64,000 nt of DNA from an uncultured Candidatus Saccharibacteria bacterium (GTDB lineage: Bacteria; Patescibacteriota; Doudnabacteria; UBA920): assembly GCA_964402965.1 (NCBI GenBank), contig CAYODY010000001.1, positions 5,724 through 69,723 of the forward strand. The letters run 5' to 3'. This document shows, in pieces, positions 35,053-59,068 of this stretch (the first letter of the stretch is position 1; every line of letters starts with the position of its first letter). The translations under genes were made by a program, and so were the position numbers. The notes under the pieces are model-generated. The model saw only the letters and a list, made by a program, of their open reading frames with translations. It ran no database searches and had not been told where the DNA came from.

Positions 35053-38000
35053 ATGAAATATATGAACAATTACGAATCTAGTCCGCGTTCAGTTTCAAGT
35101 TATGGCACTCAAGCAAAGCCGTCTTTTCGAGACTTGGCGCTTAAGAGTGCTGTTTTTGTAACTGCATTTTCGATGGTCTTTTCAGTTTTCATGCCAATAG
35201 CAAAAACTGCACAAGCCAACCATGATCCATTCAATGGTCAGGTATTTGTTAAAGAAAATAAAAACCATAAGGTAGATATTTGTCACGCTCCAGAAGGTCA
35301 AGGTGGAGCAAAATATAATCAGCAAAATGTGAGTATTGATTCAATTGTAAAAAACAATGGACATGACTCTCATTCTTCAGATGTAATCCCACCATTTCAC
35401 TACAAAGAAAAAAATAACTCTCAAAATGTAATTTCTTATAGTGGCAAAAATTGGAATTCATTAAACGAAGCTATTTGGAATGCAGATTGTAAAGTAGCAA
35501 AGTTAACTCTACTTAAAAAAGTTCAGGGTGGAGACGCTCTAGCTACTAGCTGGACTCTAAACGCTGATGGACCAGTAGATTTATCTGGTGCAACAGGCAC
35601 AAGCGCTGTTTCAAATAAAACAGTTCCTGCTGCTCAATACACTCTTTCAGAAACTGGCCCATCTGGATACTCAGCATCAAATTGGGAATGTGTTAACAAA
35701 TCTACTCAACCGGTTGCTGTAACTGGAGGAAATATTGTTACTTTAACAGATAGTTCCGAAGTAACATGTACAATTACTAATACTTTTATTGATGTGGAAA
35801 TCGATCCATGTCTTTTAGATAACATTGTAAATGAAGATTGTAACCCAGATCCATGTGATGAGTTAACTAAGAATTTGCTCACAAATCAGGTAATGGATTG
35901 TAATCCATGTGATTTAGAATCTGCAGTAAATAACCCAGATTGTAACCCAGATCCTTGTGATCCTAATATCGTCGCATCAAAGCATGATTCAGAATCAAAT
36001 AATGAAAATGATAATTGTCCAAAGCCAAAAAAGCGCTATTTAGTTATTAAAAAAGTTTGGCAAGGTTTTGAAGGTGAAGCAGGTCCTTCTAATAAAGGTG
36101 AAATTCAGGTTAATGTAAACTCAGACCTAGATGAAGAAGAATGTGATTACGACAAAAAAGGGGAGTTTTCTTGTAAAATCCGTTTCACCGAAGGCACAAC
36201 TGTTTCTATTGATGAAGAAAATATTCCAGCTGGATGGACAGTAGATCAGTCAACAGTAGGCGACATAGTTCCAAATTGTGATGAAGATTCCGAAGATGAT
36301 AATGTTGGGCCTTTCAAACTATTTGGCAAAAAAGACGACAAGGGTGATGAAGATGATAAAGATGATAAAGATGATAAGGATTGTACACATACAATCGTAA
36401 ATGTTTACAAACCAGCGGAACCTTGTGGAACAGAATTAGTAGCGAACGGAAATTTTGAACTTCCAGAAGTTAAGGATGGTGCTAATTGGGAAGTTTTCCC
36501 ATCAGGTACTCCAGGAATGGGTTGGTCTGTTAATTGGGTTCGCGAAAGCAAAGACTCTCCAGTTCCAGCTAATATGGAATTGCATGAAGGCGTAAATGGA
36601 TGGCTAGCACATAGCAGTAACCAATACGCTGAATTGGATTCAGACTGGGGAGGTCCTTCTAGTAATCAAAATGGCGAAGATGCATCTGTTGTTATGTACC
36701 AAGATTTAATTACTGTACCAGGCGGAACATACACAGTTAGCTTATGGACATCTCCACGTCCAGGCCAAGGCAATGCTCAAAACAAGACTGAAGTCAAAAT
36801 GGGTTCTACATTGCTAGATACTATTATTGAAGATGGGTCTTCAAACAGCAATACTGTTTGGACTAAGCACACTTACAGTTTTGTAGCAGAAGAATCAATG
36901 ACCCGTTTAAGCATTACAGACTTAGGTGTTGGTAATACTCTAGGTGGTTTTGTAGATGATGTTTCTGTAAAACAAGATTGTCTTTCAAACGTTACAATCT
37001 GTAAATATGATAATACTGAAACTCCACTATCTAACTGGAATGTATTATTAAAGGGCGATTTGTTAGAAACAGTTACTGTAAATTCTAATAGTTCAACTGG
37101 GGCTAACTCTGTAAACGCACTGGAATCAGGCCAAGATTATTTGGTTGAAGTTTCAGGGACATGGCAAAATCGTACATTCGAAACTGTAGATGCAAGTTAC
37201 ACAACTCCAGACAGCTGGTCCACAGTACTTCCTGCCCCTCAAGGTGGTTACCCGGATGACTTGTTGGAAACTCAAATAAATGGAAATTTTGTAAATTGGG
37301 GTCCTTACTCAAGCGGTCATAAATATCAGCTAACAATGGCTGGTAATGGAAGTACAGCAAATTTCAGAGTATTCGATGGTGATGCAAATACTAATACTCA
37401 ATTCCCAGATTGGTTCGGAGATAATATTGGATCTTTAACAGTTAAGATTTACCCTGTATACCAAGGAATCACTGGTGTTAGTGGTTGTGTAACTTTAGAA
37501 AATGTTCCGTACAACAGCTATAAGCTTGATGAAATAATGCAAGCAGGTTGGGAAAACCAATCCGGTCAAAACACAACTTCTGTTGTAGATTCATCTACTG
37601 AAACATTTAATCTAGTAAACAAATGTACTGGTGAAGAATGTCGTCAAACAAAACCACAACTACACTTAATTAAAGTAGTGTGTGATGATTTCTCTGACAT
37701 TCAAGGAAACTATAGTGCAGATGAATATGATGATACTAATGGTAACTATGTTCACTTCAACAATTACCCAGAATTTAATAACGTTGTAAAACCTGTTAAC
37801 CCAGAAGAAATCCCAAGTTCCGAATCTGGTTGTGAAACAAGATCTGGTTGGAGCTTTACTCTTTCTTCTGATCAAAACCAAGATCAGGATGTACAAACAG
37901 TGACTACTGGTGAATCAGGAGAATATGTTGGCGATCTACCAGAAAGCGGAGTTCTATGGGTTAGCGAAGTAATGCAAAAAGGTTACGACTTTGGTGCCAT

Positions 38001-39318
38001 CCGTTGTTACAACGATGCTCTAAATGGGGATAACCTAGAATTCATAAACTTAGAAGGTGATTTGCCAGCAAATGTTTACTGTATTGCATACAACATTGAA
38101 CAAATAGTGCCTTGTGAAGTTACTCCTATTTACGCGGTAAGTGGTGCAGCAACACAATTCCTTGGATTAAAAGAAGGTTCTGCTCCAACTGATTTGAAAA
38201 ACCCAGCAGATTATTCTGGTGGTTCAGCAGGTGCTGTCCCTGTAACTCCAACTGGTTATGCAGGAGCATGGGATGGTTCGGCTTTAGATCCTATTATGAC
38301 TGCCTTACCTGGAGCAGTTTACGTGAGCAATGACACGGTACAACCAACCTTTGGTGGTGGTGCAGGTCACGATGGTTCAGTGGATTCATGGAGACTGTTC
38401 AGCGATACCTTTACTATTCCAGCTGGTGCAACAGGAATATCTTCACCAAGTTTGCACTTTGCAGCGGATAATGAAGTTTCAGTATTCTTTGATGATGTCT
38501 TAATTGGTTCAAGCGCAAGCTTTGGTTCTGTAACCAGCGTTGCTCTTCCGTCACTAACACCAGGAACTCACACATTGAAGTTTGCTGTTAAGAATTACGC
38601 TTTTGACCAAACAAATAACCCAACAGGTGTTATCTATAAGTTAGATACAATTACATATGACTGTGATAGTCATGGCGACTCTCACCGCAACCTAGCTGGT
38701 ATGGTTTATTTGGATGAAGACCAGGATGAAACTAAAGATCCTGAAGAAAATCCAATAGAAGGTCTAACAGTTAAACTTATACGCGCTACTGCAGATGATG
38801 AAGATGAAGACTTGAATTTGGAAGAAGAAGAAATTGCTTCTGATGTCTCTGATGTAGATGGTAATTACTCATTTAGTGATGTAGCTGATGGATGTTATAT
38901 CCTACGTGAAGTCCCTGAATCTTACCAACAAACAGAACCTCCTGTAACACATGAGTATTATGTTAAAGTAGGGGATGCAGATTGTAACTTTAATCTAGTT
39001 ACTTTCGCAGACTACTTGTTTAAAACAGCTAACGCAGCTGACTCTTCTACAGTATTCGTTGCGTACACAGGACAACCACTAAACTTTGGAAACTTTTTGT
39101 CAGGTGGTTCTAATGGTGGTGGTTCAAGAGGCGGCTCTAGTGGAGGTTCTACTCCATTAAATCCACAAGTTTTGGGTGATACCACAACAGTACCTAGCGT
39201 ACTAGGAGCTACTACAGAGCTTCCTCGCACAGGTTCTCCAATCTCAGTACTATTCGTACTAATCACCCTGTTAAGTGGGGCAGTTTTGGCACCAAAAGTG
39301 CTTAAAATTACTCGTTAA
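35053..39318 (+). CDS. giant LPXTG-anchored surface adhesin (1421 aa) with Cys-rich and acidic repeats and Cna-B/SpaA-like modules
   Basis: An N-terminal signal/TM is present. There are DCNPDPCD-type Cys repeats (about 35.80-35.98 kb) and a DDKGDEDDKDDKDDKD acidic repeat (about 36.33-36.38 kb). Prealbumin-like Cna-B motifs are present (SDVDGNYSFSDVADGCYILREVPESYQQTEP; ...VTCTITNTF). A Gly/Ser linker precedes the sorting signal LPRTG (39220-39234), a hydrophobic stretch and the basic tail KVLKITR. Confidence 0.75.
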   Translation: MKYMNNYESSPRSVSSYGTQAKPSFRDLALKSAVFVTAFSMVFSVFMPIAKTAQANHDPFNGQVFVKENKNHKVDICHAPEGQGGAKYNQQNVSIDSIVKNNGHDSHSSDVIPPFHYKEKNNSQNVISYSGKNWNSLNEAIWNADCKVAKLTLLKKVQGGDALATSWTLNADGPVDLSGATGTSAVSNKTVPAAQYTLSETGPSGYSASNWECVNKSTQPVAVTGGNIVTLTDSSEVTCTITNTFIDVEIDPCLLDNIVNEDCNPDPCDELTKNLLTNQVMDCNPCDLESAVNNPDCNPDPCDPNIVASKHDSESNNENDNCPKPKKRYLVIKKVWQGFEGEAGPSNKGEIQVNVNSDLDEEECDYDKKGEFSCKIRFTEGTTVSIDEENIPAGWTVDQSTVGDIVPNCDEDSEDDNVGPFKLFGKKDDKGDEDDKDDKDDKDCTHTIVNVYKPAEPCGTELVANGNFELPEVKDGANWEVFPSGTPGMGWSVNWVRESKDSPVPANMELHEGVNGWLAHSSNQYAELDSDWGGPSSNQNGEDASVVMYQDLITVPGGTYTVSLWTSPRPGQGNAQNKTEVKMGSTLLDTIIEDGSSNSNTVWTKHTYSFVAEESMTRLSITDLGVGNTLGGFVDDVSVKQDCLSNVTICKYDNTETPLSNWNVLLKGDLLETVTVNSNSSTGANSVNALESGQDYLVEVSGTWQNRTFETVDASYTTPDSWSTVLPAPQGGYPDDLLETQINGNFVNWGPYSSGHKYQLTMAGNGSTANFRVFDGDANTNTQFPDWFGDNIGSLTVKIYPVYQGITGVSGCVTLENVPYNSYKLDEIMQAGWENQSGQNTTSVVDSSTETFNLVNKCTGEECRQTKPQLHLIKVVCDDFSDIQGNYSADEYDDTNGNYVHFNNYPEFNNVVKPVNPEEIPSSESGCETRSGWSFTLSSDQNQDQDVQTVTTGESGEYVGDLPESGVLWVSEVMQKGYDFGAIRCYNDALNGDNLEFINLEGDLPANVYCIAYNIEQIVPCEVTPIYAVSGAATQFLGLKEGSAPTDLKNPADYSGGSAGAVPVTPTGYAGAWDGSALDPIMTALPGAVYVSNDTVQPTFGGGAGHDGSVDSWRLFSDTFTIPAGATGISSPSLHFAADNEVSVFFDDVLIGSSASFGSVTSVALPSLTPGTHTLKFAVKNYAFDQTNNPTGVIYKLDTITYDCDSHGDSHRNLAGMVYLDEDQDETKDPEENPIEGLTVKLIRATADDEDEDLNLEEEEIASDVSDVDGNYSFSDVADGCYILREVPESYQQTEPPVTHEYYVKVGDADCNFNLVTFADYLFKTANAADSSTVFVAYTGQPLNFGNFLSGGSNGGGSRGGSSGGSTPLNPQVLGDTTTVPSVLGATTELPRTGSPISVLFVLITLLSGAVLAPKVLKITR

Positions 39319-39365
39319 ACAGGTTGGCATGCATTGAAGCATGAAACTTAGCTAAAACTTAAAAA

Positions 39366-39390
39366 GGGCCCCCTAGAGGGGCTCTTTTTT
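39366..39390 (+). terminator. rho-independent terminator after the adhesin gene
   Basis: GC-rich hairpin GGGCCCCC-tag-AGGGGCTC followed by T6. Confidence 0.6.
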
Positions 39391-39404
39391 GTTATACTAA
39401 AGAC

Positions 39405-40007
39405 ATGAAAACCTATTTTAAATACTTGGGGATTATACTCTTAGCTGTTGTTATTGTTTTCGTATTGCTAAATTTCGATTATTTTAAGAAACAACTGAGT
39501 TATATCTTAAGTAAACCTCAAACAAAACAAGACGACCAAGCGCTAAGTAATAGTGAGAATTTAAAAAGTATAATGGAGCAAAACTTCCTATCTATTCCTA
39601 GTTTAGATATAAAAGCTCCAATTAAATTTGTAACTCAAGCTAATGAAAAAGCTTTCCAAGAAGCTTTAATTGATGGTGTTGTTCAATTTCCGGGAACAGC
39701 TAAAGTTGGAACAGTTGGGAATACATATATTTTTGGTCATTCGTCAGACTTCGCTTTTAGTAAAGGAAAATATAAAACAGTGTTCGCACTACTACCAAGC
39801 ATAGACATAGGCGCGGAAATTATTGTTTCGGACGAATCTGGAAAGGCGTTTACGTATGAGGTGATTAAAAAATTTGTTGCAAGCAAGAAAGATGTGCATT
39901 TGCTGGACCAAAATACAAATGGTGAGAAAATTCTAACTGTTCAAACTTCGTACCCAATAGGAACTGCTTTACAGAGATATATTGTGGTTGCTAGGTTAAG
40001 AGAATAA
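39405..40007 (+). CDS. sortase-family paralogue with Ser at the catalytic-Cys position
   Basis: 200 aa with an N-terminal TM. It aligns with the sortase domain of 5325..6767. The motifs are VVQFPGTAKVGTVGNTYIFGHSS (His conserved), ILTVQTSYPIG (codon tcg where the paralogue has tgt in ALSTCWPIG) and LQRYIVVARL (Arg conserved). It lies immediately downstream of the LPRTG protein. Confidence 0.6.
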   Translation: MKTYFKYLGIILLAVVIVFVLLNFDYFKKQLSYILSKPQTKQDDQALSNSENLKSIMEQNFLSIPSLDIKAPIKFVTQANEKAFQEALIDGVVQFPGTAKVGTVGNTYIFGHSSDFAFSKGKYKTVFALLPSIDIGAEIIVSDESGKAFTYEVIKKFVASKKDVHLLDQNTNGEKILTVQTSYPIGTALQRYIVVARLRE

Positions 40008-46643: not shown

Positions 46644-47384
46644 ATGGAAGAGCAATACATTCTACATTATCAACCGATGGTTACTTTGTCTGACTATAGA
46701 ATAGTTGGGGCAGAGGCGTTGGTGCGTCGTGTTGAAGGTAAAAAAATAATTTCACCTAGCGACTTTATTCCAGATGCTGAGCGCACTGGGAAAATTATTT
46801 CCATTGGACAATGGGTGTTAGCAGATGTGTGTCGTCAAATTAACGAGTGGCAGGGGAGCGGAGTCGAGCCTGTTCCTATAGCGATAAACATTTCTGCACG
46901 TGAACTTTTCCATACCAATTTTACTGAAAATGTTTTGGAAGTTGTGAAGGCTGCAAAAGTAGATCCAAAACTAATTAAATTTGAGTTAACAGAAACTTTC
47001 CCAGTAGAAGAACTGGAGCGTGCCGATAAAATTCTTAAGCAACTAAAAAAACAAGGTTTTACCTTGCTTATAGATGATTTTGGTACCGGGTACGCGTCTT
47101 TAAAATATTTAACTTATTTACCGTTTGATGGTGTAAAGATAGACCAGACTTTTGTTGCAACACTCCCAGATAGTTTGCCAGATGCCGCTATTATTTCTGC
47201 AGTTTGCGGATTAGCGAGACAATTAAAGTTAAGAGTCATTGCTGAAGGTGTCGATAAAAAGTCACAGTTAAATTTCTTGCGCGCTGTTGGCTGTAATTCG
47301 GCACAAGGTAACTATTTTTGCAAAGCTGTTTCAGCAGAAGCTCTTACTAAATTATTGCAAGGGAAGCGCAAATTGCCTGCTTAG
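46644..47384 (+). CDS. stand-alone EAL-domain protein (putative c-di-GMP phosphodiesterase)
   Basis: Motifs EALVRR, ELTE, LLIDDFGTGYASLKYL, DGVKIDQTFV; 246 aa with no GGDEF domain. Confidence 0.8.
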   Translation: MEEQYILHYQPMVTLSDYRIVGAEALVRRVEGKKIISPSDFIPDAERTGKIISIGQWVLADVCRQINEWQGSGVEPVPIAINISARELFHTNFTENVLEVVKAAKVDPKLIKFELTETFPVEELERADKILKQLKKQGFTLLIDDFGTGYASLKYLTYLPFDGVKIDQTFVATLPDSLPDAAIISAVCGLARQLKLRVIAEGVDKKSQLNFLRAVGCNSAQGNYFCKAVSAEALTKLLQGKRKLPA

Positions 47385-50321: not shown

Positions 50322-50377
50322 ATATACATTATACCTTACTCGCTAAAATTGCGCGAAAACTGTATAATATTAAGGAT

Positions 50378-51232
50378 ATGACTACTAAATCAATCTTATT
50401 AGCAATCATAGTTTTAGGTATATTTATTGGAATTATGGAAAAAGTTCCACAGCGTTCTTGGGATTGGTTTTCTAACACTTCTATTGGTAACCAAGTTTTA
50501 AATTACAAATCAGGGAATCAGGTTTTACCAGACCCACTACGCGGACTTATTGACCCAAATATTAAGAGTCAATTAACCATGGAAGGCGTGGTGAAATATA
50601 CAAATTTACAACGTGGTACAAATGGACAGTCTACACTAAAGATAAATGCAAAATTAAATGCTGCTGCAATGGCAAAAATTGATGATCTTTTTGCTCAGCA
50701 ATATTTTGAACACAAATCTCCAAATGGTAATACTCCTGCAGATATAATTAAGGCACAGGGCTACGAGTATATTGTAGTTGGAGAAAATTTGGCGTTAGGA
50801 AATTTTAAAGACGACGAAACTTTAGTACAAGCATGGATGGATAGTCCAGGGCATCGTGCGAATATTTTAAATCACAAGTATCAAGAAATTGGTGTAGCAG
50901 TAAAAAAAGGAATGTTTGAAGGTAACGAAGTTTGGTTGGCTGTGCAAGAGTTTGGTGCTCCACTTTCTGCATGCCCTCCAGCAAATCAAAGTATAAAAAC
51001 TCAACTAGATGCAAACAAGTCTTTACTGGCAGAGTACGAAACTACTTTAAACAGACAAAAATCTGATTTAGATAGCAATAGTTTTGCAAGTCCTGCTGAG
51101 TACAACAGAGCGGTCACACAATACAATATTTTAGTAAAAAAGACTCGTGAATTAAGCGAGAGAACCAAAGAGTTGGTGGATCAATATAACGATTCTGTAA
51201 ATAATTTTAATAGTTGTCTAGAAAGTAATTAG
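50378..51232 (+). CDS. CAP/SCP (PR-1/YkwD-like) domain protein with N-terminal TM and C-terminal coiled coil
   Basis: Start at ATG 50378 (MTTKSILLAIIVLGIF), downstream of a TATAAT box at 50363. The CAP motifs are GENLALGNFKDDETLVQAWMDSPGHRANILNHKYQEIGVAV. Confidence 0.65.
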   Translation: MTTKSILLAIIVLGIFIGIMEKVPQRSWDWFSNTSIGNQVLNYKSGNQVLPDPLRGLIDPNIKSQLTMEGVVKYTNLQRGTNGQSTLKINAKLNAAAMAKIDDLFAQQYFEHKSPNGNTPADIIKAQGYEYIVVGENLALGNFKDDETLVQAWMDSPGHRANILNHKYQEIGVAVKKGMFEGNEVWLAVQEFGAPLSACPPANQSIKTQLDANKSLLAEYETTLNRQKSDLDSNSFASPAEYNRAVTQYNILVKKTRELSERTKELVDQYNDSVNNFNSCLESN

Positions 51233-51245
51233 AAATTCACAAAGA

Positions 51246-52565
51246 ATGATAGATATTGCAGGTTTAAAAATTAGTAATATAACAAAGCGCGAGTTACTAG
51301 AACAAGTCCGTGAACGTGTCGCTAAGAAGCAAAAAACTTTTGTAACAACACCGTACTCAGAGTTTTTGTACGCGAGCATGCGTAACCCAGAAGTCCGGGA
51401 AATGTTAAATAAGTCAGATTTCGCAATACCAGATGGGATTGGGATTCTTTGGGCTCATCTATTTTTGTCTCGTCCTTTTAGTTTTAAGAATTTCTACCTA
51501 AAAATTATCCAGTCGTGGTTTCAGGTGGTGTGGACAGGGGCATCTATTATTTTCAAACCGAGTTTGCTGTATAGAGAGATTCCAGAAAAAATTGTTGGAG
51601 CAGATTTAATTTGGGATTTGTGTGCAATGGCAGAACGCGAGAATTTTTCTGTGTTTTTATTAGGTGGCTTTGGTCATACTACGGAAATTGCAAAACAGAA
51701 ACTTTTACAAAAATTTCCTAAACTGCAAATTGCAGGGACTTCAAATAAGAATCCTAAAGATGTTGAAGTTTTGGATCAAATCAATTCTGTTAAACCAGAT
51801 TTGCTTTTTGTAGCTTTCGGGCCAATAAAACAAGAGAAGTGGATTGCGGAAAACTTACAAAATATTTCAGCGAGTTTTGCAATTGGTTTAGGAGGAACTT
51901 TTGACTACATAGCAGGAACTAAAAAAGCACCACCAAAATTTATCCGTCGTATTGGATTGGAATGGTTGTATCGGTTAGTTACTCAACCAAGTAGGTTAGC
52001 AAGAATTTACAAAGCGGTTGTTGGTTTAATAATTTCGCTCATGCGACACAAAGTTTTTTCTTCAATGCCTTTTCGAAAAAATGTAATAGCGGTTGTTCTA
52101 AATGATGAGGGTAAAATTTTTATTGCCCAACGGAATCCCAGAGATCCGTACTTAGTAAAAACAGCAGGTGGAATTATGCTTGAGAAGTATGCAAATTATT
52201 GGCAGTTCGCTCGTGGTGAAGCTGAAAAAAATGAAACCTTAGAGGAAACAGGTAGACGTGAGTTGATGGAAGAAACTGGAATTACATCTGTTGAGCTAAA
52301 AAAAATTTCTAAACAAACTAGCTCGTATCTTTGGAACAATTCATTAAGACCTTTATTTGGGAATATATACAAAAAAAAGGGACAAAATCAAAACATTGTC
52401 TATTTTAATTTTGTTGGAGAAGATTCAGAAATCAAGTTAGACCAAAGGGAGTTAGTCAATTATAAATGGGTAAAAATGAGTGATTTAGATTCAACTTTGC
52501 ACCCGGAACAAGCAGACGTAATTCGTATAATAAAAGAAGATCTGGGTGTTGAAAATCAGGCTTAA
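51246..52565 (+). CDS. fusion protein: WecB/TagA/CpsF-family glycosyltransferase (GT26) plus C-terminal NUDIX hydrolase
   Basis: GT26 motifs FAIPDGIGILWA, FLLGGFG and GGTFDY in the first ~260 aa. The Nudix box GEAEKNETLEETGRRELMEETGI (G-x5-E-x7-REUxEExGU) follows in the last ~150 aa. Confidence 0.7.
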   Translation: MIDIAGLKISNITKRELLEQVRERVAKKQKTFVTTPYSEFLYASMRNPEVREMLNKSDFAIPDGIGILWAHLFLSRPFSFKNFYLKIIQSWFQVVWTGASIIFKPSLLYREIPEKIVGADLIWDLCAMAERENFSVFLLGGFGHTTEIAKQKLLQKFPKLQIAGTSNKNPKDVEVLDQINSVKPDLLFVAFGPIKQEKWIAENLQNISASFAIGLGGTFDYIAGTKKAPPKFIRRIGLEWLYRLVTQPSRLARIYKAVVGLIISLMRHKVFSSMPFRKNVIAVVLNDEGKIFIAQRNPRDPYLVKTAGGIMLEKYANYWQFARGEAEKNETLEETGRRELMEETGITSVELKKISKQTSSYLWNNSLRPLFGNIYKKKGQNQNIVYFNFVGEDSEIKLDQRELVNYKWVKMSDLDSTLHPEQADVIRIIKEDLGVENQA

Positions 52566-54128: not shown

Positions 54129-54194
54129 ATCTGTTACATAAAGTTTTCGTAAAACTTTGGCAAAACCACATCAAATGTGATATAATTATCTCAA

Positions 54195-55499
54195 ATGATT
54201 GGTAAAAACTCTGAAACCAAAACTGTTTTTAAGCTTCTCGTATCTGCCGGAATAATTGGCTTATTTGGGCTATTTTTGGTTGTTGGAAAATTCGTTGTGT
54301 TCAATGATGCTCAAGCTGTGGTAATAAACCCAAGCATAGACTTAAACGATAGACTTCAGAAAATTCAAGCACAAATCAACGCTTACCAGCAATCCATTAG
54401 TCAAACCAAAAAGCAAGGAGCTAGTCTAGCAAACGAAATTAGCATGTACGATAACCAAATTGCATCTTTGGAGTTACAAATGCAGGCTAATTCTACTCAA
54501 ACAGAAGACACAACATTGCAAATTAAAGAGTTGCAAACTCAAATAGACCGTCGTCGTGCAGAAATAGATCAAAATAAAGTTATTCTAGGTTCATTAATTC
54601 GCCAGCTTTCTGAGTTAGACGAAAACTCGTTCTTGCACATAGGTCTTGGTACAGATAATTTCTCATCATTCTTAGATCAAATTCAGTACAACCGAAGTGT
54701 GCAAGATCAGGTATATTCTTTAGTCGTCAAAATTAAAGAAATTAAGGCGAAATTAGAAGTTCAGCAAGATGATTTAAAGAAACAACTCGAAAAACTAAAG
54801 CAACTTGGTGAGCAGTTAAACATTGCAGAGAAAGCTTTAGCAGATGAGCGTTCTTCTAAGTCAGAATTATTAGCAAAGACAAAAGGAACAGAGAAGAACT
54901 ATCAGAAATTACTACAAACAAGTAAGGGTGAGGCAGATAAAATCCAACAAGAACTTTACGATCTTGACCAAGCGGCACGTGGACGTGCTGGAAACCCAAG
55001 CATCTCTGCTAAGAAAGGTGTGTTGGCTTGGCCAATGGATGGTGTGTTAACTCAAGGTTATGGAAATACTGGGTTCACTTCTCTAGGTTACAATTTCCAC
55101 AATGGAATAGATTTAGCCGCCCCTGCTGGGAAGCCAATCTATGCAGCAGCAGATGGTACTGTTGCAAACTGTAATTCATCTCAAGCTGCCTATGGAAACT
55201 GGTGTACTATCTATCACTCTGTTTCCACAAATGATGGAATTCGAGATATCGTTACGTTATATGCTCACATGAGCTCTATTAAAGTTTCCCCAGGATTGCA
55301 AGTAAAAATGGGTGATTTAATTGGGTACGAAGGTAATTCTGGAAACACAACTCGTTTGCTATATGGACCAGATAGGGGATACCATCTTCACTTTACTGTT
55401 TTTGACCGTAAAGGTTATGCCGTAACAAAAGGTAAATATGGTGACTACTATGTTCCAAGCGGAGTAACATATAATCCACTTAATTTCTTAGGTAAATAA
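54195..55499 (+). CDS. M23 (LytM) peptidoglycan endopeptidase with N-terminal TM and coiled coil (EnvC-like)
   Basis: A TM anchor, then a ~250-aa coiled coil, then HNGIDLAAPAGKPIYAAADGTV ... YAHMS ... GYHLHF (the M23 HxxxD / HxH zinc site). Confidence 0.8.
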   Translation: MIGKNSETKTVFKLLVSAGIIGLFGLFLVVGKFVVFNDAQAVVINPSIDLNDRLQKIQAQINAYQQSISQTKKQGASLANEISMYDNQIASLELQMQANSTQTEDTTLQIKELQTQIDRRRAEIDQNKVILGSLIRQLSELDENSFLHIGLGTDNFSSFLDQIQYNRSVQDQVYSLVVKIKEIKAKLEVQQDDLKKQLEKLKQLGEQLNIAEKALADERSSKSELLAKTKGTEKNYQKLLQTSKGEADKIQQELYDLDQAARGRAGNPSISAKKGVLAWPMDGVLTQGYGNTGFTSLGYNFHNGIDLAAPAGKPIYAAADGTVANCNSSQAAYGNWCTIYHSVSTNDGIRDIVTLYAHMSSIKVSPGLQVKMGDLIGYEGNSGNTTRLLYGPDRGYHLHFTVFDRKGYAVTKGKYGDYYVPSGVTYNPLNFLGK

Positions 55500-55508
55500 T
55501 TTTAGATA

Positions 55509-56615
55509 ATGTTCGACAAAATAAAAAACCTAAGGCGTGTAGGGAAAGCTTTAGCGCTTAGTTTTGTTATTTTCCAAATAGCATTTAGTCAAATTGGCTT
55601 TGCTAGTGCACAAACTGCTTCACAAATCCCTGGCGGTTTAAAACCAGATACTTCAGGAGCAATAAACGTTCCTCAATACGATAAAGGCGTTGATGCTAGT
55701 ATTGCGCAATATTTATGCGTTCCAGAAAGTGTAGATGAAGGCGCTGCGCTGTTTCAATGTATTAGCAAAGTATATAGATTTGGAATTGCGTTTGGAGCAA
55801 TTGCCTTGGTGTTCTTTATTGTTTTGGCAGGATATTTGTATATGGCAGGAGGGGAGGCGAGTAAAGAAAAAGGTAAGACTATTTTTACAACAGCACTGAC
55901 AGGTATGATAATTATGCTTTCCAGTTTTGTGTTGTTAAATTTTCTTAACCCTAGTTTAACTTTAATTCGACCAATTCAAGCCCCTATTTTTAGTGCAGTA
56001 GATTTACCAAGTTGCGAGTCTATTGGTTTTAGTGGAACTTGCGTACTTCCTAGTGGGCAAGTAAGCGTCGGTGCTGGTGGTGGCGTTCCTGGGTCTGCGA
56101 GTGAGGCGGCTGTCGCTCCTTTAATAGCAAAGTATGCAAAAGCGAATGGGCTAACCTATTGTCAGTTGTCGTCCTTGGTAAACAAAGAATCGTCTTTCAT
56201 TACTAATAATGTATCGAATGGACCTCCTAACAGGGTAGACATCAAAAGCACTGCTAAATATTATGGTTTACCATTTACTAATGGATCACCTCCTGGGCAT
56301 GGAATTGGGTTGGCTCAAGTATATATTTATGGACCTCCGCCAAGTAAATTTTGGACAAATCCAAATACTCCATCACGCGATGGAAAGGAATTTGGGTTTA
56401 ATAAACCACTCACTATTCCAGATTTGGTAGATCCAGATACAGCATTAAGTGCAGGTGCTTACTTCTTTGCATCAAAGGTGGGAAAGAATAAAGGGGATAT
56501 TGGAGCAGCATATGCAGCGTATTATGGTGATCCCAATCAAACAAAAGAATCTACTAAAAAAGTTGTAGCAAAAATGTTAAGTATGTACGCAGAATGCGAA
56601 AAGAAACAAAAATAA
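55509..56615 (+). CDS. membrane-hairpin protein with C-terminal lytic-transglycosylase-like (SLT) domain
   Basis: The N-terminal ~160 aa form the module signal peptide, C-x15-C, two TM helices, PIQAP and C-x7-C. This module is paralogous to 57164..58807. The C-terminus has KESSF (catalytic Glu-Ser), GIGLAQV (GLMQ-like) and AAYAAYYGD (AYNAG-like). Confidence 0.5.
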   Translation: MFDKIKNLRRVGKALALSFVIFQIAFSQIGFASAQTASQIPGGLKPDTSGAINVPQYDKGVDASIAQYLCVPESVDEGAALFQCISKVYRFGIAFGAIALVFFIVLAGYLYMAGGEASKEKGKTIFTTALTGMIIMLSSFVLLNFLNPSLTLIRPIQAPIFSAVDLPSCESIGFSGTCVLPSGQVSVGAGGGVPGSASEAAVAPLIAKYAKANGLTYCQLSSLVNKESSFITNNVSNGPPNRVDIKSTAKYYGLPFTNGSPPGHGIGLAQVYIYGPPPSKFWTNPNTPSRDGKEFGFNKPLTIPDLVDPDTALSAGAYFFASKVGKNKGDIGAAYAAYYGDPNQTKESTKKVVAKMLSMYAECEKKQK

Positions 56616-56616
56616 T

Positions 56617-57162
56617 ATGTTTGAATTCATAGAAAAACACAAAAGATTGATAATTATTATTGTGATTACAATACCAATCATAATGCTACTAGTTTTGTTA
56701 TCTTTAAGCATGAAAAATGAAACTAATAATGTTACTCAAAATTCTGATAATAGCATTGACTTGGTAGCTAAAGAACTAAATTATCCATTTTTATTAGATA
56801 GCACACCAGAAAAAGATCAATATTTAATGTTATTAGCTAAAAGAATGACTGAGGATTATGGAACTTACGAAAGTTCTGATTTAAGATCACTAGAGTCTGT
56901 AAAAAATCAATCAACAGAATCATTTAAATCTACTGTACAAAACCTCATTGATAAAGTTAGTTCTGAAGTAAATATTTCAACAGAAGTTGATCCTAACTCG
57001 ATAGAGTTAACTCGCTTGTCCGAAAATACTGCAAAAGTGCAAATGGATGCTATCACAACGAACATAAATAATTCTAAAAATATTGAGATTTCTAGCGAAG
57101 TCAAATTATATTATGATGGCACGTATTGGCTAGTTGATAACATTACTTTTATAAATAAGTAA
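56617..57162 (+). CDS. hypothetical small bitopic membrane protein
   Basis: 181 aa with an N-terminal TM (LIIIIVITIPIIMLLVLLSL). It is tightly packed between the two paralogous hydrolase genes. Confidence 0.4.
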   Translation: MFEFIEKHKRLIIIIVITIPIIMLLVLLSLSMKNETNNVTQNSDNSIDLVAKELNYPFLLDSTPEKDQYLMLLAKRMTEDYGTYESSDLRSLESVKNQSTESFKSTVQNLIDKVSSEVNISTEVDPNSIELTRLSENTAKVQMDAITTNINNSKNIEISSEVKLYYDGTYWLVDNITFINK

Positions 57163-57163
57163 A

Positions 57164-58807
57164 ATGCAAAATTTGAAACACATTATATTTGGTACATTTT
57201 TAGGTTTGACGTTATTCATTCCTACGTTGGTTCTTGCGCAAGCCACAACTACCGCTCCAACCTCGGGAGTTTCTGGTGCAACAGAATACAAAGGGGTAGA
57301 TGCCAGCATTGCTAGTTACTTGTGTGCCCCTAGTGATTCTGTTACAGACAATAGCCAAGATCTGCCAAATTGTATAAATAAAGTATATAGATTTAGCATT
57401 GCTTTTGGTGCAATTGCTTTAGTGTTCTTTGTTGTTTATGCAGGATATTTGTATATGATAGGAGGGGAGACAGGTAAGGCAAGTGCGAAGACAATGATTC
57501 AAAATGCAATCATCGGTATTTCACTTTTATTGGGTAGCTATGTGATTCTAACTTTCATTAATCCTAATTTGGTTATTTATAAACCAATACAAGCTCCGTT
57601 GTTTACTGCGAATGATTTTCCTAGTTGCGAAGAGATTGGATATACAGATAGCTGTACTATTGACCAAGAGTCAGGCAATACTAATACAGATGGTATGACA
57701 AGAGGTACTGCGGCACCTTGTAAAGGAGGTTTAATCTCAATACCATCAGAGATACCTCATAGCGGAAAAGTTACTCAAATATGTAAAGATCTATCGGATA
57801 AACTACTTCAACTTGTAAAAATATTACCTCCAAAGGGTGATAATGCATGGATAATTTCTCAAACTTTTTCAGCTTCTACTCCAAGTAAAAGTCGTTGTCA
57901 TCACGTGTTGGGATGGGTTAGTCCTACTGGTATAAAAACTACTGAAACAGGTAATTGTGCTGATTTCAATATGGTGGGGCAAACACCAGGTAAATCCCCA
58001 TCAGATAAAAGTTATGCTAATTTATGTAAAGCGATTAAACAAATTGGCGGACTTAACTATTTGAATGAAGCTAGTACAGAAGCAGAGTGTGGACCATTTG
58101 ATTCTGAAGTAAAACGTACTGGCTCTAATTTGCATGTGAATTACATAGGGTCAAGTGGTGGCGGTGGAAGCAGTTCATCAGCTGGTGGAACAAGACCTAA
58201 CTGTATTCCTGTAGCAAAAACTCCTGGAGTTTGTGACGATAATTTATCGTCTGGTTCAAAAGCTCCTGATGATGATTTTCAAAATGCAGATCCTGGTGTT
58301 AAAGTTGCTTTCGATACTTTAAAAAAGCAATATAAGAATTTAAATGCAAAACAGGTTTATAGGTCTCCCGAGTATGGAGCTCATATGCGCTCCTCGTTTG
58401 AAGCATATGCATTTAATCAAGGATGGACCGAATCTCAAATTCGTTCATATGGTCAGTATTGCGCAAGTCAAAACATACTATACGTCACTGCCGCAGATGC
58501 TAAAAATTCAAATACAATTACTTATGGCAAAAAACATTTTAACGATCATTTTGCGAGCAAAAATTTAGACCCATTAGAAGCCCCGATGACTTGTTATTCT
58601 GATCATGGCAGAGGTTTGGCAGTTGATATAGAACAAACAAGTACTACTCAAACAAAAGCTTTTGAGCAGGCTGCGAGAGCTGCTGGTCTTTGTCATAATG
58701 TTCCTCAGTTCACAGCACATGGCCATACAACAAGAAAGGATTATCCCCATTATGTTTTATTCAGTAAATTCCCTCAAAAAGAAAAAATTTGCATAAACTA
58801 TTATTAG
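57164..58807 (+). CDS. membrane-hairpin protein with C-terminal M15 (VanY-like) peptidase domain
   Basis: The N-terminal module is paralogous to 55509..56615 (KVYRFSIAFGAIALVFFVVYAGYLYMIGGE ... PIQAPLF ... FPSCEEIGY). The C-terminus has YRSPEYGAHM, SDHGRGLAVDI (SxHxxGxAxD) and HGH, consistent with an M15 zinc peptidase. Confidence 0.5.
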   Translation: MQNLKHIIFGTFLGLTLFIPTLVLAQATTTAPTSGVSGATEYKGVDASIASYLCAPSDSVTDNSQDLPNCINKVYRFSIAFGAIALVFFVVYAGYLYMIGGETGKASAKTMIQNAIIGISLLLGSYVILTFINPNLVIYKPIQAPLFTANDFPSCEEIGYTDSCTIDQESGNTNTDGMTRGTAAPCKGGLISIPSEIPHSGKVTQICKDLSDKLLQLVKILPPKGDNAWIISQTFSASTPSKSRCHHVLGWVSPTGIKTTETGNCADFNMVGQTPGKSPSDKSYANLCKAIKQIGGLNYLNEASTEAECGPFDSEVKRTGSNLHVNYIGSSGGGGSSSSAGGTRPNCIPVAKTPGVCDDNLSSGSKAPDDDFQNADPGVKVAFDTLKKQYKNLNAKQVYRSPEYGAHMRSSFEAYAFNQGWTESQIRSYGQYCASQNILYVTAADAKNSNTITYGKKHFNDHFASKNLDPLEAPMTCYSDHGRGLAVDIEQTSTTQTKAFEQAARAAGLCHNVPQFTAHGHTTRKDYPHYVLFSKFPQKEKICINYY

Positions 58808-58816
58808 CACTTAAAG

Positions 58817-59068
58817 CTATATAACCAACCTAACTTTCTTCTCGCGAGAAAGTTTTTTTATTTCCATTTCGCGTTTGGTTGCTGAGCTTCTGCTAGTGCA
58901 TGATTCTGTGTAAACTATTTTCTTGGCACCTCGAGCTTTGGTATATTTAGCACCCATACCGTCTTTGTGTTCTTGGAAACGTTTTCGCACATCTAAAGTA
59001 ATTCCGGTATACAGAGAACCGTCAGAGCAGAGGAGTATGTATACAAACCATGTTTTTGTTTTAGTCAT
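58817..59068 (-). CDS. GIY-YIG domain protein (UPF0213/YhbQ-like)
   Basis: WFVYILLCSDGSLYTGITLDVRKRFQEH ... REMEIKKL; 83 aa. Confidence 0.75.
   Translation of the reverse strand: MTKTKTWFVYILLCSDGSLYTGITLDVRKRFQEHKDGMGAKYTKARGAKKIVYTESCTSRSSATKREMEIKKLSREKKVRLVI

What the first reader, a model, noticed from the sequence alone, without database searches (positions are those of the whole stretch)
54195..58807. Four-gene peptidoglycan-remodelling cluster with a novel paralogous membrane-hairpin module fused to two different hydrolase domains
Four consecutive genes encode the following.
- A TM plus coiled-coil M23 endopeptidase (EnvC-like).
- A protein whose C-terminus carries SLT-like motifs (KESSF ... 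GIGLAQV ... AAYAAYYGD).
- A 181-aa bitopic protein.
- A protein whose C-terminus carries M15/VanY-like motifs (SDHGRGLAVDI, YRSPE..., HGH).

The second and fourth proteins share a highly similar ~160-aa N-terminal module. Its parts, in order, are a signal peptide, a Cys pair (YLCVPES...FQC and YLCAPSD...PNC), two TM helices separated by a short charged loop (KVYRF[GS]IAFGAIALVFF.V.AGYLYM.GGE... then a second helix), a PIQAP motif and a second Cys pair (LPSCESIGFSGTC and FPSCEEIGYTDSC).

The topology is signal peptide plus TM hairpin with the enzyme outside. This resembles TrbC/VirB2-type pilin scaffolds or holin-like hairpins, but here it tethers wall hydrolases.

The cluster supplies three distinct bond specificities in one place. 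This is a coherent but undescribed machine. It could serve division or septal splitting, or it could attack a host or partner cell wall in an episymbiont.
Basis: partly seen in the sequence, partly recalled or inferred. Interest (0 to 1): 0.75.

Follow-up and report, generated by a model that had tools for sequence, protein, structure and literature searches.

The report
Wall-cutting enzymes on pilin-type anchors
A conserved four-gene operon in an ultrasmall (Patescibacteria) bacterium attaches cell-wall-cutting enzymes to the membrane hairpin normally used as a type IV secretion pilin; this architecture is common in that group, I found no description of it, and it may help show how these bacteria open cell walls.

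Summary
Four tightly packed genes (54195-58807, +) encode: a TM + coiled-coil M23 peptidase with an intact active site; module + SLT lytic transglycosylase; a 181-aa bitopic protein; and module + peptidase. The two N-terminal modules share 43% identity (E 5e-47).

The module is not new. It belongs to Pfam PF18895 (T4SS_pilin, VirB2-like), already known as abundant Patescibacteria "pilins".

What I found no description of:
- The hairpin carries wall hydrolases from about ten families (SLT, SLT_3, M15, VanY, M15_4, M23, Amidase_2, CHAP, C39-like, GDSL).
- The operon sits at a fixed housekeeping position, after gltX, in all 24 species-level loci that reach it. No T4SS gene lies nearby.
- The anchor is more conserved than the enzymes it carries.

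Best reading (0.4): a surface wall-breaching kit, probably aimed at a host wall, with gene 3 restraining the glycosidase. Close rival (0.35): remodelling of the cell's own wall.

The parts
54157..54186 (+). Promoter-like site (TTGGCA-18 nt-TATAAT with TG) in the 66-nt gap between gltX and gene 1
   Evidence: 11 of 12 matches, the best in the region. The total number of sites is no higher than in shuffles, so this is weak evidence.
54195..55499 (+). Gene 1: N-terminal TM helix (~aa 13-35), coiled coil (~aa 45-265), M23 metallopeptidase (aa 301-404) with HNGID 302-306, YAHM 356 and HLH 397-399
   Evidence: Orthologues are 56-86% identical and always come first in the cluster.
55509..56615 (+). 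Gene 2: signal peptide (aa 1-34), VirB2-type pilin hairpin module (aa ~35-183; Cys 70, 84, 169, 178), SLT lytic transglycosylase domain (aa 184-368; E227 in KESS)
   Evidence: module HMM E 1.4e-68; SLT 26.1 bits.
56617..57162 (+). Gene 3: bitopic protein, TM helix aa 9-32, NTF2-like ectodomain aa ~46-181 with a VirB8-like fold; cognate partner of gene 2's glycosidase class
57164..57670 (+). Gene 4, N-terminal part: signal peptide (aa 1-26) and second copy of the pilin hairpin module (aa 27-169; Cys 54, 70, 155, 164)
   Evidence: (module HMM E 1.1e-76).
57704..58153 (+). Gene 4, middle domain (aa ~181-330): Cys-rich domain with invariant C, C, C-H, C-x-D, C, N-E, C, H. Probably a minimal LAS-type zinc peptidase (inference). 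It occurs alone after the module in ~320-aa relatives.
   Evidence: No sequence-level family. The order of secondary-structure elements and His/Asp/His parallels the C-terminal domain.
58154..58195 (+). Gene 4: Gly/Ser linker (GSSGGGGSSSSAGG)
   Evidence: pLDDT is below 50 at fragment residues 162-172.
58196..58807 (+). Gene 4, C-terminal domain (aa 345-547): VanY/M15-like LAS zinc peptidase with QVYRS 397, S-D-H481-x6-D488 and D526-x-x-H529

Best explanation
This is a conserved, probably co-transcribed operon of a Patescibacteria chromosome. It puts a set of peptidoglycan-cutting enzymes on the outer face of the cell membrane.

**The carrier.** Two of the enzymes use the same carrier: the VirB2-type 'T4SS pilin' hairpin. 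It consists of a cleavable signal peptide, two membrane helices joined by a short Lys-rich cytoplasmic loop, and two outward-facing disulfide-type Cys pairs. Its outward C-terminus is extended by catalytic domains.

**The genes.**
- Gene 2 carries a lytic transglycosylase, which cuts glycan strands.
- Gene 4 carries a Cys-rich domain and a VanY-like LAS zinc peptidase, which cut peptide stems or cross-links.
- Gene 1 adds a membrane-anchored, coiled-coil M23 endopeptidase with an intact active site.
- Gene 3 is a VirB8-like bitopic protein. It is the specific partner of gene 2's glycosidase domain.

**Proposed mechanism.**
- The highly conserved hairpins bring the enzymes to one site in the envelope, by binding each other or the pilin-handling machinery (inferred).
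- There, glycan and peptide bonds are cut locally (inferred from the families).
- Gene 3 restrains or guides the glycosidase, which could otherwise cut the producer's own glycan (inferred from cassette co-variation).
- I lean to the wall of a neighbouring or host cell at the contact zone as the main target (inferred). The peptidase domains are exchanged rapidly between close relatives and need no partner gene. The glycosidase, whose substrate is universal, always has one.

**Shown:** gene content, domain families and folds, topology signals, synteny, fusion census, co-variation.

**Inferred:** complex formation, enzymatic activity, the role of gene 3, and the target wall.
For: - Domain identities.
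- The module is PF18895-type: (34 of 42 and 85 of 128 members; best E 9.8e-28).
- Topology: three hydrophobic segments and a K-rich loop. Invariant Cys. A DsbA gene is inserted in the cluster in L003, L004 and L009.
- The hairpin carries many hydrolase families: SLT, M15, M23, C39_2, GDSL, M15_4, Amidase_2, VanY, SLT_3, CHAP and NlpC/P60-like. 139 of the best 150 representatives are 250 aa or longer.
- Fixed operon: the M23cc gene is directly followed by a module gene in all 24 species-level loci that include it. There are 2-4 module genes per cluster. The flanking housekeeping genes are the same in every annotated relative.
- Gene 2's C-domain class and gene 3's class swap together. All 9 genomes are concordant. 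So are all 15 informative loci of the species scan, 8 A-A and 7 B-B, with none discordant. The two gene-3 classes are not homologous.
- Gene 4 domains differ among genomes whose M23 proteins are 81-86% identical. The anchor (48-70% identity) is better conserved than the cargo (26-53%, or unrelated).
- In S. epibionticum, a lysozyme, an M15B-like peptidase, an NTF2-like protein and PF18895 pilins are separate genes of the T4SS cluster, which is essential for epibiotic growth.
Against: - No T4SS ATPase or channel gene lies in the 64-kb window or within 10 kb in any relative.
- The locus is housekeeping-like and universal in the clade. Gene 1 has the architecture of FtsEX-controlled division hydrolases, and FtsX lies 8-10 kb away in relatives. 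That fits own-wall work.
- The linker between hairpin and enzyme is short. A membrane-embedded fusion could reach a foreign wall only if it were extruded (as a pilus subunit) or cleaved off, and there is no evidence for either.
- A VirB8-like fold is a scaffold in T4SSs, not a typical inhibitor. NTF2-like folds are common, and generic members score only 2-3 Z units lower.
- The lifestyle of this clade is unknown. S. epibionticum, the one cultured member checked, shows only short pilins in the (possibly truncated) table.
Confidence: 0.4

Rival explanations
1. Own-wall remodelling complex. The operon is the cell's housekeeping autolysin set for growth, septum splitting, or making gaps for envelope-spanning machines such as its own T4SS or type IV pili. 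The hairpins are membrane tethers that confine the enzymes to the cell's own thin wall. Gene 3 is a VirB8-like scaffold or regulator of the transglycosylase, and gene 1 is driven by FtsEX.
For: - Fixed position among housekeeping genes in every genome seen.
- Gene 1 is the most conserved member (56-86% identity). It has the TM + coiled coil + hydrolase architecture of EnvC/PcsB/CwlO-type enzymes (established knowledge). FtsX with an FtsX_ECD domain lies 8-10 kb downstream in relatives.
- Short linkers keep the enzymes near the producer's membrane.
- Monoderm T4SS hydrolases (PrgK, TraG, CwlT) also combine a TM anchor with SLT, LytM, CHAP or NlpC/P60 domains to open the donor's own wall (PMC12102498).
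- VirB1-VirB8 contacts are known in Gram-negative T4SSs (my own knowledge).
Against: - An enzyme set that acts on one invariant own wall would not be expected to change bond specificity among near relatives (LAS+VanY-like, M23+M15+C39-like, M23+C39-like, CHAP).
- The anchor is more conserved than the enzymes.
- Gene 3 is replaced by a non-homologous protein whenever the glycosidase class changes. That looks like specific neutralisation rather than a generic scaffold.
Confidence: 0.35
2. Anchor of convenience. The pilin-type hairpin has simply been reused as a generic N-terminal membrane anchor. The four genes encode independent hydrolases that neither assemble with each other nor relate functionally to type IV secretion.
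For: No T4SS genes are nearby. Many unrelated catalytic domains use the same N-terminus, as happens with wall-binding modules of Gram-positive autolysins (established knowledge).
Against: - There are 28 invariant positions, including residues inside both membrane helices. Identity among paralogues and orthologues is 45-60%, against an average of 25% in ordinary Patescibacteria pilin arrays (PMC12102498). A plain anchor only needs hydrophobicity.
- Gene order is strict and spacing is 1-9 nt.
- Polypeptides with 3-4 tandem modules before one lysozyme-type domain suggest that the modules pack against each other.
- Gene 3 co-varies with gene 2.
Confidence: 0.15
3. Phage- or mobile-element-derived lysis cassette, with a holin-like hairpin plus endolysin domains.
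For: Hairpin plus wall hydrolase resembles holin/endolysin logic. The M23 domain matches phage endolysin and tape-measure PHROGs.
Against: - The modules and ORF3 have no PHROG match, and ORF2 has only a marginal endolysin-domain hit.
- A signal peptide precedes the hairpin.
- Chromosomal synteny is conserved across 24 species-level loci, with no phage or integrase genes.
- Composition is unremarkable.
- The hairpin belongs to PF18895.
Confidence: 0.03

Closest known systems
VirB2/TrbC-type pilins of Patescibacteria (Pfam PF18895 T4SS_pilin); the essential pilin array of Southlakia epibionticum (PMC10633639) and the census in PMC12102498
   Same: Signal peptide, two TM helices with a short basic loop, and an HMM relationship to PF18895 and TrbC. 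[quoted passage not shown]
   Different: The described pilins are short; in S. epibionticum the genes are 381-435 bp where listed. They lie in the T4SS cluster there and average 25% identity within arrays. Here the hairpin is 45-60% conserved, carries 185-640 aa of catalytic domains, and lies at a housekeeping locus without T4SS genes.
VirB1-type hydrolases of monoderm T4SSs (PrgK of pCF10, TraG of pIP501, CwlT of ICEBs1, TcpG)
   Same: An N-terminal membrane anchor followed by combinations of SLT/lysozyme, LytM(M23), CHAP or NlpC/P60 domains. They open peptidoglycan locally for a secretion machine (PMC12102498; own knowledge).
   Different: Their anchors are not pilin-like. They are encoded inside conjugation clusters. 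No M15/LAS domains and no co-varying partner gene are described for them.
VirB8 family (VirB8, TrwG, TraE, DotI, CagV; TraM and PrgL in Gram-positives)
   Different: There is no sequence-level match to any VirB8 model. Gene 3 is not next to VirB4 or VirB6. It is replaced by a non-homologous protein when the neighbouring glycosidase class changes.
FtsEX-controlled coiled-coil hydrolases and activators (EnvC, PcsB, CwlO, RipC)
   Same: Gene 1 has an N-terminal anchor or signal, a long coiled coil and a C-terminal wall hydrolase domain. FtsX is encoded nearby in relatives.
   Different: EnvC has a degenerate M23 site, whereas gene 1 keeps HxxxD and HxH. It scores far below the EnvC equivalog cut-off. 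No interaction with FtsX was tested.
Effector-immunity pairs of bacteria-killing secretion systems (Xanthomonas/Stenotrophomonas T4SS X-Tfe/X-Tfi; T6SS Tse/Tsi wall hydrolases) and polymorphic toxins
   Same: A conserved N-terminal delivery or anchoring part with a variable C-terminal enzyme. A small gene immediately downstream changes together with the enzyme class.
   Different: Here the N-terminal part is a membrane hairpin, not a soluble secretion signal. Only the glycosidase has a partner. Neither toxicity nor neutralisation has been shown.
SpoIID/SpoIIM/SpoIIP engulfment machine of Bacillus
   Same: Works alike: membrane-anchored transglycosylase and peptidase/amidase act together with a membrane scaffold to cut wall next to the membrane (own knowledge).
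   Different: No homology of the anchors or the scaffold; the biological setting is different.

Membership tests
PF18895 T4SS_pilin / VirB2-TrbC pilins | Match to the family HMM at the curated threshold | tested here: inconclusive
   The window proteins score 18.0 and 18.1 bits against a cut-off of 26.6. But 34 of 42 and 85 of 128 relatives match, best E 9.8e-28. Those relatives are linked to the window's module at E 1e-28 to 1e-76.
PF18895 T4SS_pilin / VirB2-TrbC pilins | Signal peptide followed by two TM helices joined by a short basic loop, with both ends outside | tested here: met
   Hydropathy segments in ORF4 at 6-27, 73-102 and 111-134; loop GGETGKASAKT. ORF2 shows the same pattern. The orientation is inferred from the positive-inside rule.
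PF18895 T4SS_pilin / VirB2-TrbC pilins | Small stand-alone protein with no further domain | tested here: not met
   185 aa (ORF2) and 378 aa (ORF4) of catalytic domains follow the hairpin.
PF18895 T4SS_pilin / VirB2-TrbC pilins | Encoded with VirB4 and other T4SS genes | tested here: not met
   None in the window or within 10 kb in the annotated relatives. The rest of the genome could not be examined.
PF18895 T4SS_pilin / VirB2-TrbC pilins | Polymerises into a conjugative-type pilus | not testable with these tools
   Needs microscopy or biochemistry.
SLT lytic transglycosylase (PF01464) | HMM match above the gathering score | tested here: met
   23.2 bits for the whole protein and 26.1 bits for the C-terminal 185 aa, against a cut-off of 21.3.
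SLT lytic transglycosylase (PF01464) | Catalytic Glu in an E-S motif, followed by GLxQ-type and AYNxG-type motifs | tested here: met
   KESS 226-229, GIGLAQV 265 and AAYAAYYG 333. E-S is kept in all class-A orthologues.
Peptidase M15 / LAS fold (VanY-like), ORF4 C-terminal domain | Family HMM above threshold | tested here: not met
   VanY 14.0 bits and M15_4 13.1 bits against cut-offs of 25. No PDB sequence match.
Peptidase M15 / LAS fold (VanY-like), ORF4 C-terminal domain | LAS fold | tested here: met
Peptidase M15 / LAS fold (VanY-like), ORF4 C-terminal domain | Zinc triad H-x6-D ... H, with an acidic residue three positions before the last His | tested here: met
   H481-x6-D488 and D526-x-x-H529, invariant in 13 homologues.
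LAS fold, ORF4 middle domain | LAS fold with a His/Asp/His metal site | tested here: inconclusive
   Invariant H, D and H plus six Cys and N-E. The order of helix and strand elements matches the C-terminal domain. There is no sequence-level signal, and no separate fold search was possible.
Peptidase M23 | HMM above threshold and HxxxD plus HxH metal ligands | tested here: met
   81.1 bits against 28.7. HNGID 302-306 and HLH 397-399.
EnvC (murein hydrolase activator) | Equivalog score and a degenerate, inactive M23 site | tested here: not met
   28.7 bits against a cut-off of 270. The active-site residues are intact. Only the coiled-coil architecture is shared.
VirB8 | Bitopic protein with an NTF2-like ectodomain closest to VirB8 structures | tested here: met
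VirB8 | Sequence family match and location in a T4SS cluster | tested here: not met
   No Pfam or NCBIfam VirB8 hit. No T4SS genes nearby.
Effector-immunity / polymorphic enzyme cassette | Conserved N-terminal part, variable C-terminal enzyme, and a downstream partner gene that changes with the enzyme | tested here: met
   Met for gene 2 and gene 3. Gene 4 has the variable enzyme but no co-varying partner.
Effector-immunity / polymorphic enzyme cassette | Enzyme toxic to the producer and neutralised by its partner | not testable with these tools
   Needs expression and binding experiments, or complex prediction.

The most novel reading that the evidence does not exclude
A 'lytic pilus'. The VirB2-type hairpins are genuine pilus subunits. 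The T4SS extracts them from the membrane and builds them, as minor or tip-proximal subunits, into a filament. The filament's outer surface displays transglycosylase and peptidase domains, so the pilus itself digests its way through a host cell wall. Gene 3 shields the producer's own wall from the glycosidase while the subunits wait in the membrane.
Probability: 0.15. Interest if true: 0.9.

Novelty: new variant of a known kind. Interest (0 to 1): 0.62.

Why it matters
**Relevance to Patescibacteria biology.** Patescibacteria depend on other cells. In the one genetically tested species, the T4SS and its 'pilin array' are essential, yet nobody knows what the pilins do or how host walls are opened.

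**What this finding adds.**
- In a whole clade, the same pilin hairpin is the standard carrier for wall hydrolases of about ten families.
- These are organised in a conserved operon together with a VirB8-like partner.

**Consequences.**
- The work gives concrete candidate enzymes, and a candidate inhibitor, for wall breaching or wall growth in ultrasmall bacteria.
- It shows T4SS parts (VirB1-, VirB2- and VirB8-like) recombined into a unit that is encoded apart from any T4SS cluster, at least locally.
- It adds at least one wall-peptidase domain, and probably two, that current family libraries do not recognise.

Tried and rejected
- **PDB sequence searches.** ORF2, ORF4 and profiles of ORF3, the ORF4 middle domain and the ORF4 C-terminal domain gave nothing meaningful.
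- **NCBIfam.** No equivalog for any of the four proteins.
- **hhalign between ORF4 sub-domains and the M15_4 domain of paralogues.** Only a 20-column match at the SxHxxGxAxD motif.
- **Single-sequence homologue search with ORF3.** It found only itself. A profile built from positional orthologues was needed.
- **Class A versus class B gene-3 proteins.** Not homologous by hhalign, so 'one fast-evolving family' was rejected.
- **Holin/endolysin or prophage origin.** Rejected: no PHROG signal for the module or ORF3, and the synteny is chromosomal.
- **RNA features.** No tRNA and no Rfam family in the window.
- **T4SS genes.** Searched for by Pfam among about 34 ORFs of the window: none.
- **Public names for relatives.** None on record.
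- **S. epibionticum supplementary tables.** Only short PF18895 pilins and no fusion. The table may be truncated.
- **Supplement of the Patescibacteria T4SS census.** It lists PF18895 hits simply as VirB2, with no architecture information.
- **Contexts of multi-module fusions in other lineages.** The contigs were too short to decide on T4SS linkage. One lies next to jag-yidC-rnpA and dnaA.
- **Not possible.** I could not determine which ORF4 sub-domain the fold hits aligned to, and could not examine whole genomes for virB4.

Full report
**1. What is there**

They are separated by 9, 1 and 1 nt. The best promoter-like site of the region sits in the 66-nt gap after gltX (54157-54186).

The window is ordinary chromosomal DNA of about 37% GC, with no tRNA or Rfam hit. 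It holds aminoacyl-tRNA synthetases, rpoA, glycosyltransferases, sortases and a SpaA-type surface protein. None of about 34 ORFs scanned is a type IV secretion gene. Relatives are labelled Candidatus Saccharibacteria, Candidatus Doudnabacteria or Patescibacteria group.

**2. Gene by gene**

*Gene 1.*
- It has an N-terminal hydrophobic helix, about 220 aa that match coiled-coil families, and a Peptidase_M23 domain (E 6.7e-23).
- It keeps HNGID (302-306) and HLH (397-399). It therefore looks catalytically competent, unlike EnvC, whose equivalog model it misses by far (28.7 against 270 bits).

*Gene 2.*
- It passes the SLT threshold: 23.2 bits for the whole protein and 26.1 bits for its C-terminal 185 aa, against a cut-off of 21.3.
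- It has the E-S catalytic motif.

*Gene 4* has three parts after the signal peptide.
- The first is the shared module.
- The second is a Cys-rich middle domain (~181-330). This domain also occurs on its own behind the module in ~320-aa relatives.
- After a Gly/Ser linker comes a C-terminal domain (345-547).
- No family library or PDB sequence search recognises either extra domain. The only signals are sub-threshold VanY and M15_4 hits on the motif region of the C-terminal domain.

*Fold of the gene-4 extra domains.*
- An AlphaFold2 model of residues 170-547 from a 42-sequence alignment is confident (pLDDT 84.3).
- The C-terminal domain has the canonical spacing: S-D-H481-x6-D488 and D526-x-x-H529. 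These residues are invariant in homologues.
- The middle domain has invariant His, Asp and His plus six Cys and an N-E pair. Its order of helices and strands matches the C-terminal domain.
- I take the middle domain to be a second, minimal LAS domain. This is inference, because the tools do not report which sub-domain aligned.

**3. The shared module**

- The two N-termini are 43% identical over 198 aa (E 5e-47). They are the only two copies in the window.
- The module consists of a signal peptide, a Cys pair, two hydrophobic helices joined by GGE-x-GK-x-x-AK, a K-P-I-Q-P/A-P-I-F stretch and a second Cys pair.
- The window's own scores against PF18895 (T4SS_pilin) and TrbC are below threshold (18 and 14 bits).
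- However, 34 of 42 members of the first alignment and 85 of 128 more distant relatives match PF18895, best E 9.8e-28.
- The module is therefore a member of, or immediate neighbour to, the VirB2-like pilin family already described as widespread in Patescibacteria. [quoted passage not shown] It is essential, as a pilin array inside the T4SS cluster, in Southlakia epibionticum (PMC10633639).
Its remark that the module resembles TrbC/VirB2 does.

**4. What the hairpin carries**

- A profile of the module finds 21,889 representative clusters at E <= 0.001, 1,107 at <= 1e-10 and 121 at <= 1e-30, among 1.84 billion proteins. Of the best 150, 139 are at least 250 aa.
- Their additional domains are almost all wall hydrolases: SLT, Peptidase_M15, M23, C39_2, GDSL/SGNH, M15_4, Amidase_2, VanY, SLT_3 and CHAP. 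One is NlpC/P60-like.
- Some proteins have three or four tandem hairpins before a single SLT or lysozyme-like domain.
- I found no paper that describes such fusions. The published census lists every PF18895 hit simply as VirB2.
- In S. epibionticum the pilins are short. A lysozyme, an M15B-like peptidase and an NTF2-like protein are separate genes of the T4SS cluster. The parts list is similar, but the parts are not fused.

**5. A conserved operon**

- Every annotated relative has the order CAP-domain protein, WecG(-NUDIX), GltX, coiled-coil M23, module+glycosidase, small TM protein, (DsbA), (extra module+M15_4), module+peptidase(s). A convergent aminotransferase gene follows further downstream.
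- With my own HMMs, the M23 gene is directly followed by a module gene in all 24 species-level loci that include it. There are two to four module genes per cluster.
- No T4SS gene appears within 10 kb in any relative.
- The DsbA insertions, and the many invariant Cys, fit an extracytoplasmic, disulfide-bonded set of proteins.

**6. Gene 3**

- A profile built from positional orthologues retrieved 21 homologues.
- The AlphaFold2 model (pLDDT 84.8) has a TM helix and an alpha+beta ectodomain.
- There is no sequence-level VirB8 match.

**7. Cassette behaviour**

- Across nine genomes, gene 2's catalytic domain falls into three classes: A is SLT; B is Cys-rich with weak SLT_3 similarity; C has weak glucosaminidase similarity.
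- Gene 3 falls into exactly the same three groups. This is independent of gene 4's domain and of the M23 phylogeny.
- In the species-level scan, 8 of 8 class-A glycosidases are followed by class-A gene 3, and 7 of 7 class-B by class-B. No pair is discordant. Two of these loci overlap the first nine genomes.
- Classes A and B of gene 3 are not homologous. Gene 2's enzyme and gene 3 are therefore exchanged as a unit, which is the signature of a specific partner.
- Gene 4's catalytic part also turns over. Among four genomes whose M23 proteins are 81-86% identical, it is LAS+VanY-like, M23+M15+C39-like, M23+C39-like, or CHAP. No partner gene tracks it.
- The hairpin (48-70% identity) is better conserved than its cargo. 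It is also much better conserved than ordinary pilin arrays, which average 25%.

**8. Interpretation**

Shown:
- An operon of membrane-anchored, outward-facing wall hydrolases that cover glycan and peptide bonds.
- Two of them are built on a VirB2-type hairpin.
- A VirB8-like partner is specific to the glycosidase.

Inferred:
- The hairpins co-assemble, or are recognised by pilin-handling machinery. The basis is that conservation inside the membrane helices and the tandem-hairpin proteins argue against a plain anchor.
- Gene 3 restrains or guides the glycosidase.

The target wall is unresolved.

*For a foreign (host) wall, 0.40:*
- Peptidase specificities are exchanged quickly.
- The glycosidase, whose substrate is universal, always has a cognate partner.
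- The family is linked to the T4SS, which is essential for epibiotic growth in the tested species.

*For the cell's own wall, 0.35:*
- The locus is housekeeping-like.
- Gene 1 has an EnvC/PcsB-like architecture, with FtsX nearby in relatives.
- The tethers are short.
- Monoderm T4SS hydrolases offer a precedent for opening the donor's own wall.

*Other readings:* a mere anchor of convenience, 0.15; a phage lysis cassette, 0.03. The latter is disfavoured and by the synteny.

**9. Novelty and score**

- The parts are known kinds: M23, SLT, LAS peptidases, VirB2-like pilin and a VirB8-like fold.
- What I found no description of: the use of the pilin hairpin as a general carrier for wall hydrolases; the conserved operon away from any T4SS cluster; the co-swapped glycosidase/partner cassette; and one LAS domain, probably two, that libraries do not see.
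- I rate it a new variant of a known kind, with interest 0.62.
- The most novel reading not excluded is a pilus that displays hydrolases on its surface. I give it probability about 0.15.

Noticed in passing
window 35053-40007: A 1421-aa surface protein with SpaA/prealbumin-fold domains is followed by a sortase gene (39405-40007). A second sortase domain is fused to a ~330-aa N-terminal region at 5325-6767. This suggests sortase-assembled surface fibres or adhesins in this Patescibacteria genome.
   Followed up: no
window 50372-52565: A CAP/SCP-domain secreted protein with a C-terminal coiled-coil-like tail, and a WecG/TagA glycosyltransferase fused to a NUDIX domain. Both lie upstream of gltX and the operon in most annotated relatives; in L004 and L006 the WecG gene lacks the NUDIX part.
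   Followed up: partly
window 58817-59068 (-): An 83-aa GIY-YIG protein gene converges on the stop codon of gene 4, leaving a 9-nt gap. The same small gene sits downstream of gene 4 in L007, L008 and L009.
   Followed up: no
window 46644-47384: A stand-alone EAL-domain (c-di-GMP phosphodiesterase) protein (E 4.4e-65) lies next to YceG/MltG and a histidine kinase. This is unexpected signalling content for a reduced genome.
   Followed up: no
window 10946-12718, 14770-16164, 28459-30231: Three large ORFs (590, 464 and 590 aa) have no Pfam match at E <= 0.001.
   Followed up: no
L041 1-3217; L042 16-2427; L043 1177-2625: Other lineages have proteins with three or four tandem pilin hairpins followed by one SLT or Cys-rich lysozyme-like domain. 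They are preceded by another wall enzyme: hairpin + NlpC/P60-like in L041, YkuD in L042. L041 lies beside jag-yidC-rnpA and dnaA, that is, at the replication origin.
   Followed up: partly
L003 8219-8944; L004 7279-8001; L009 9251-9991: A DsbA/thioredoxin-fold gene is inserted between gene 3 and the next module gene in some relatives but not in the window. This fits the many invariant cysteines of the module and the LAS domains.
   Followed up: partly
L039 61-1356; L040 9716-11146: Two MAGs labelled Pseudomonadales carry 432-477-aa proteins with a weak match to the module (E about 1e-9). An M23-like gene lies a few kb away. This could be mis-binning or a distant relative.
   Followed up: no
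L007 10001-12403; L008 8335-10206: In these relatives gene 4 ends in a further domain with a papain-like 'SGCGVVATAMVLN' motif, probably Peptidase_C39_2-like. L007 therefore carries three different catalytic domains on one hairpin.
   Followed up: partly
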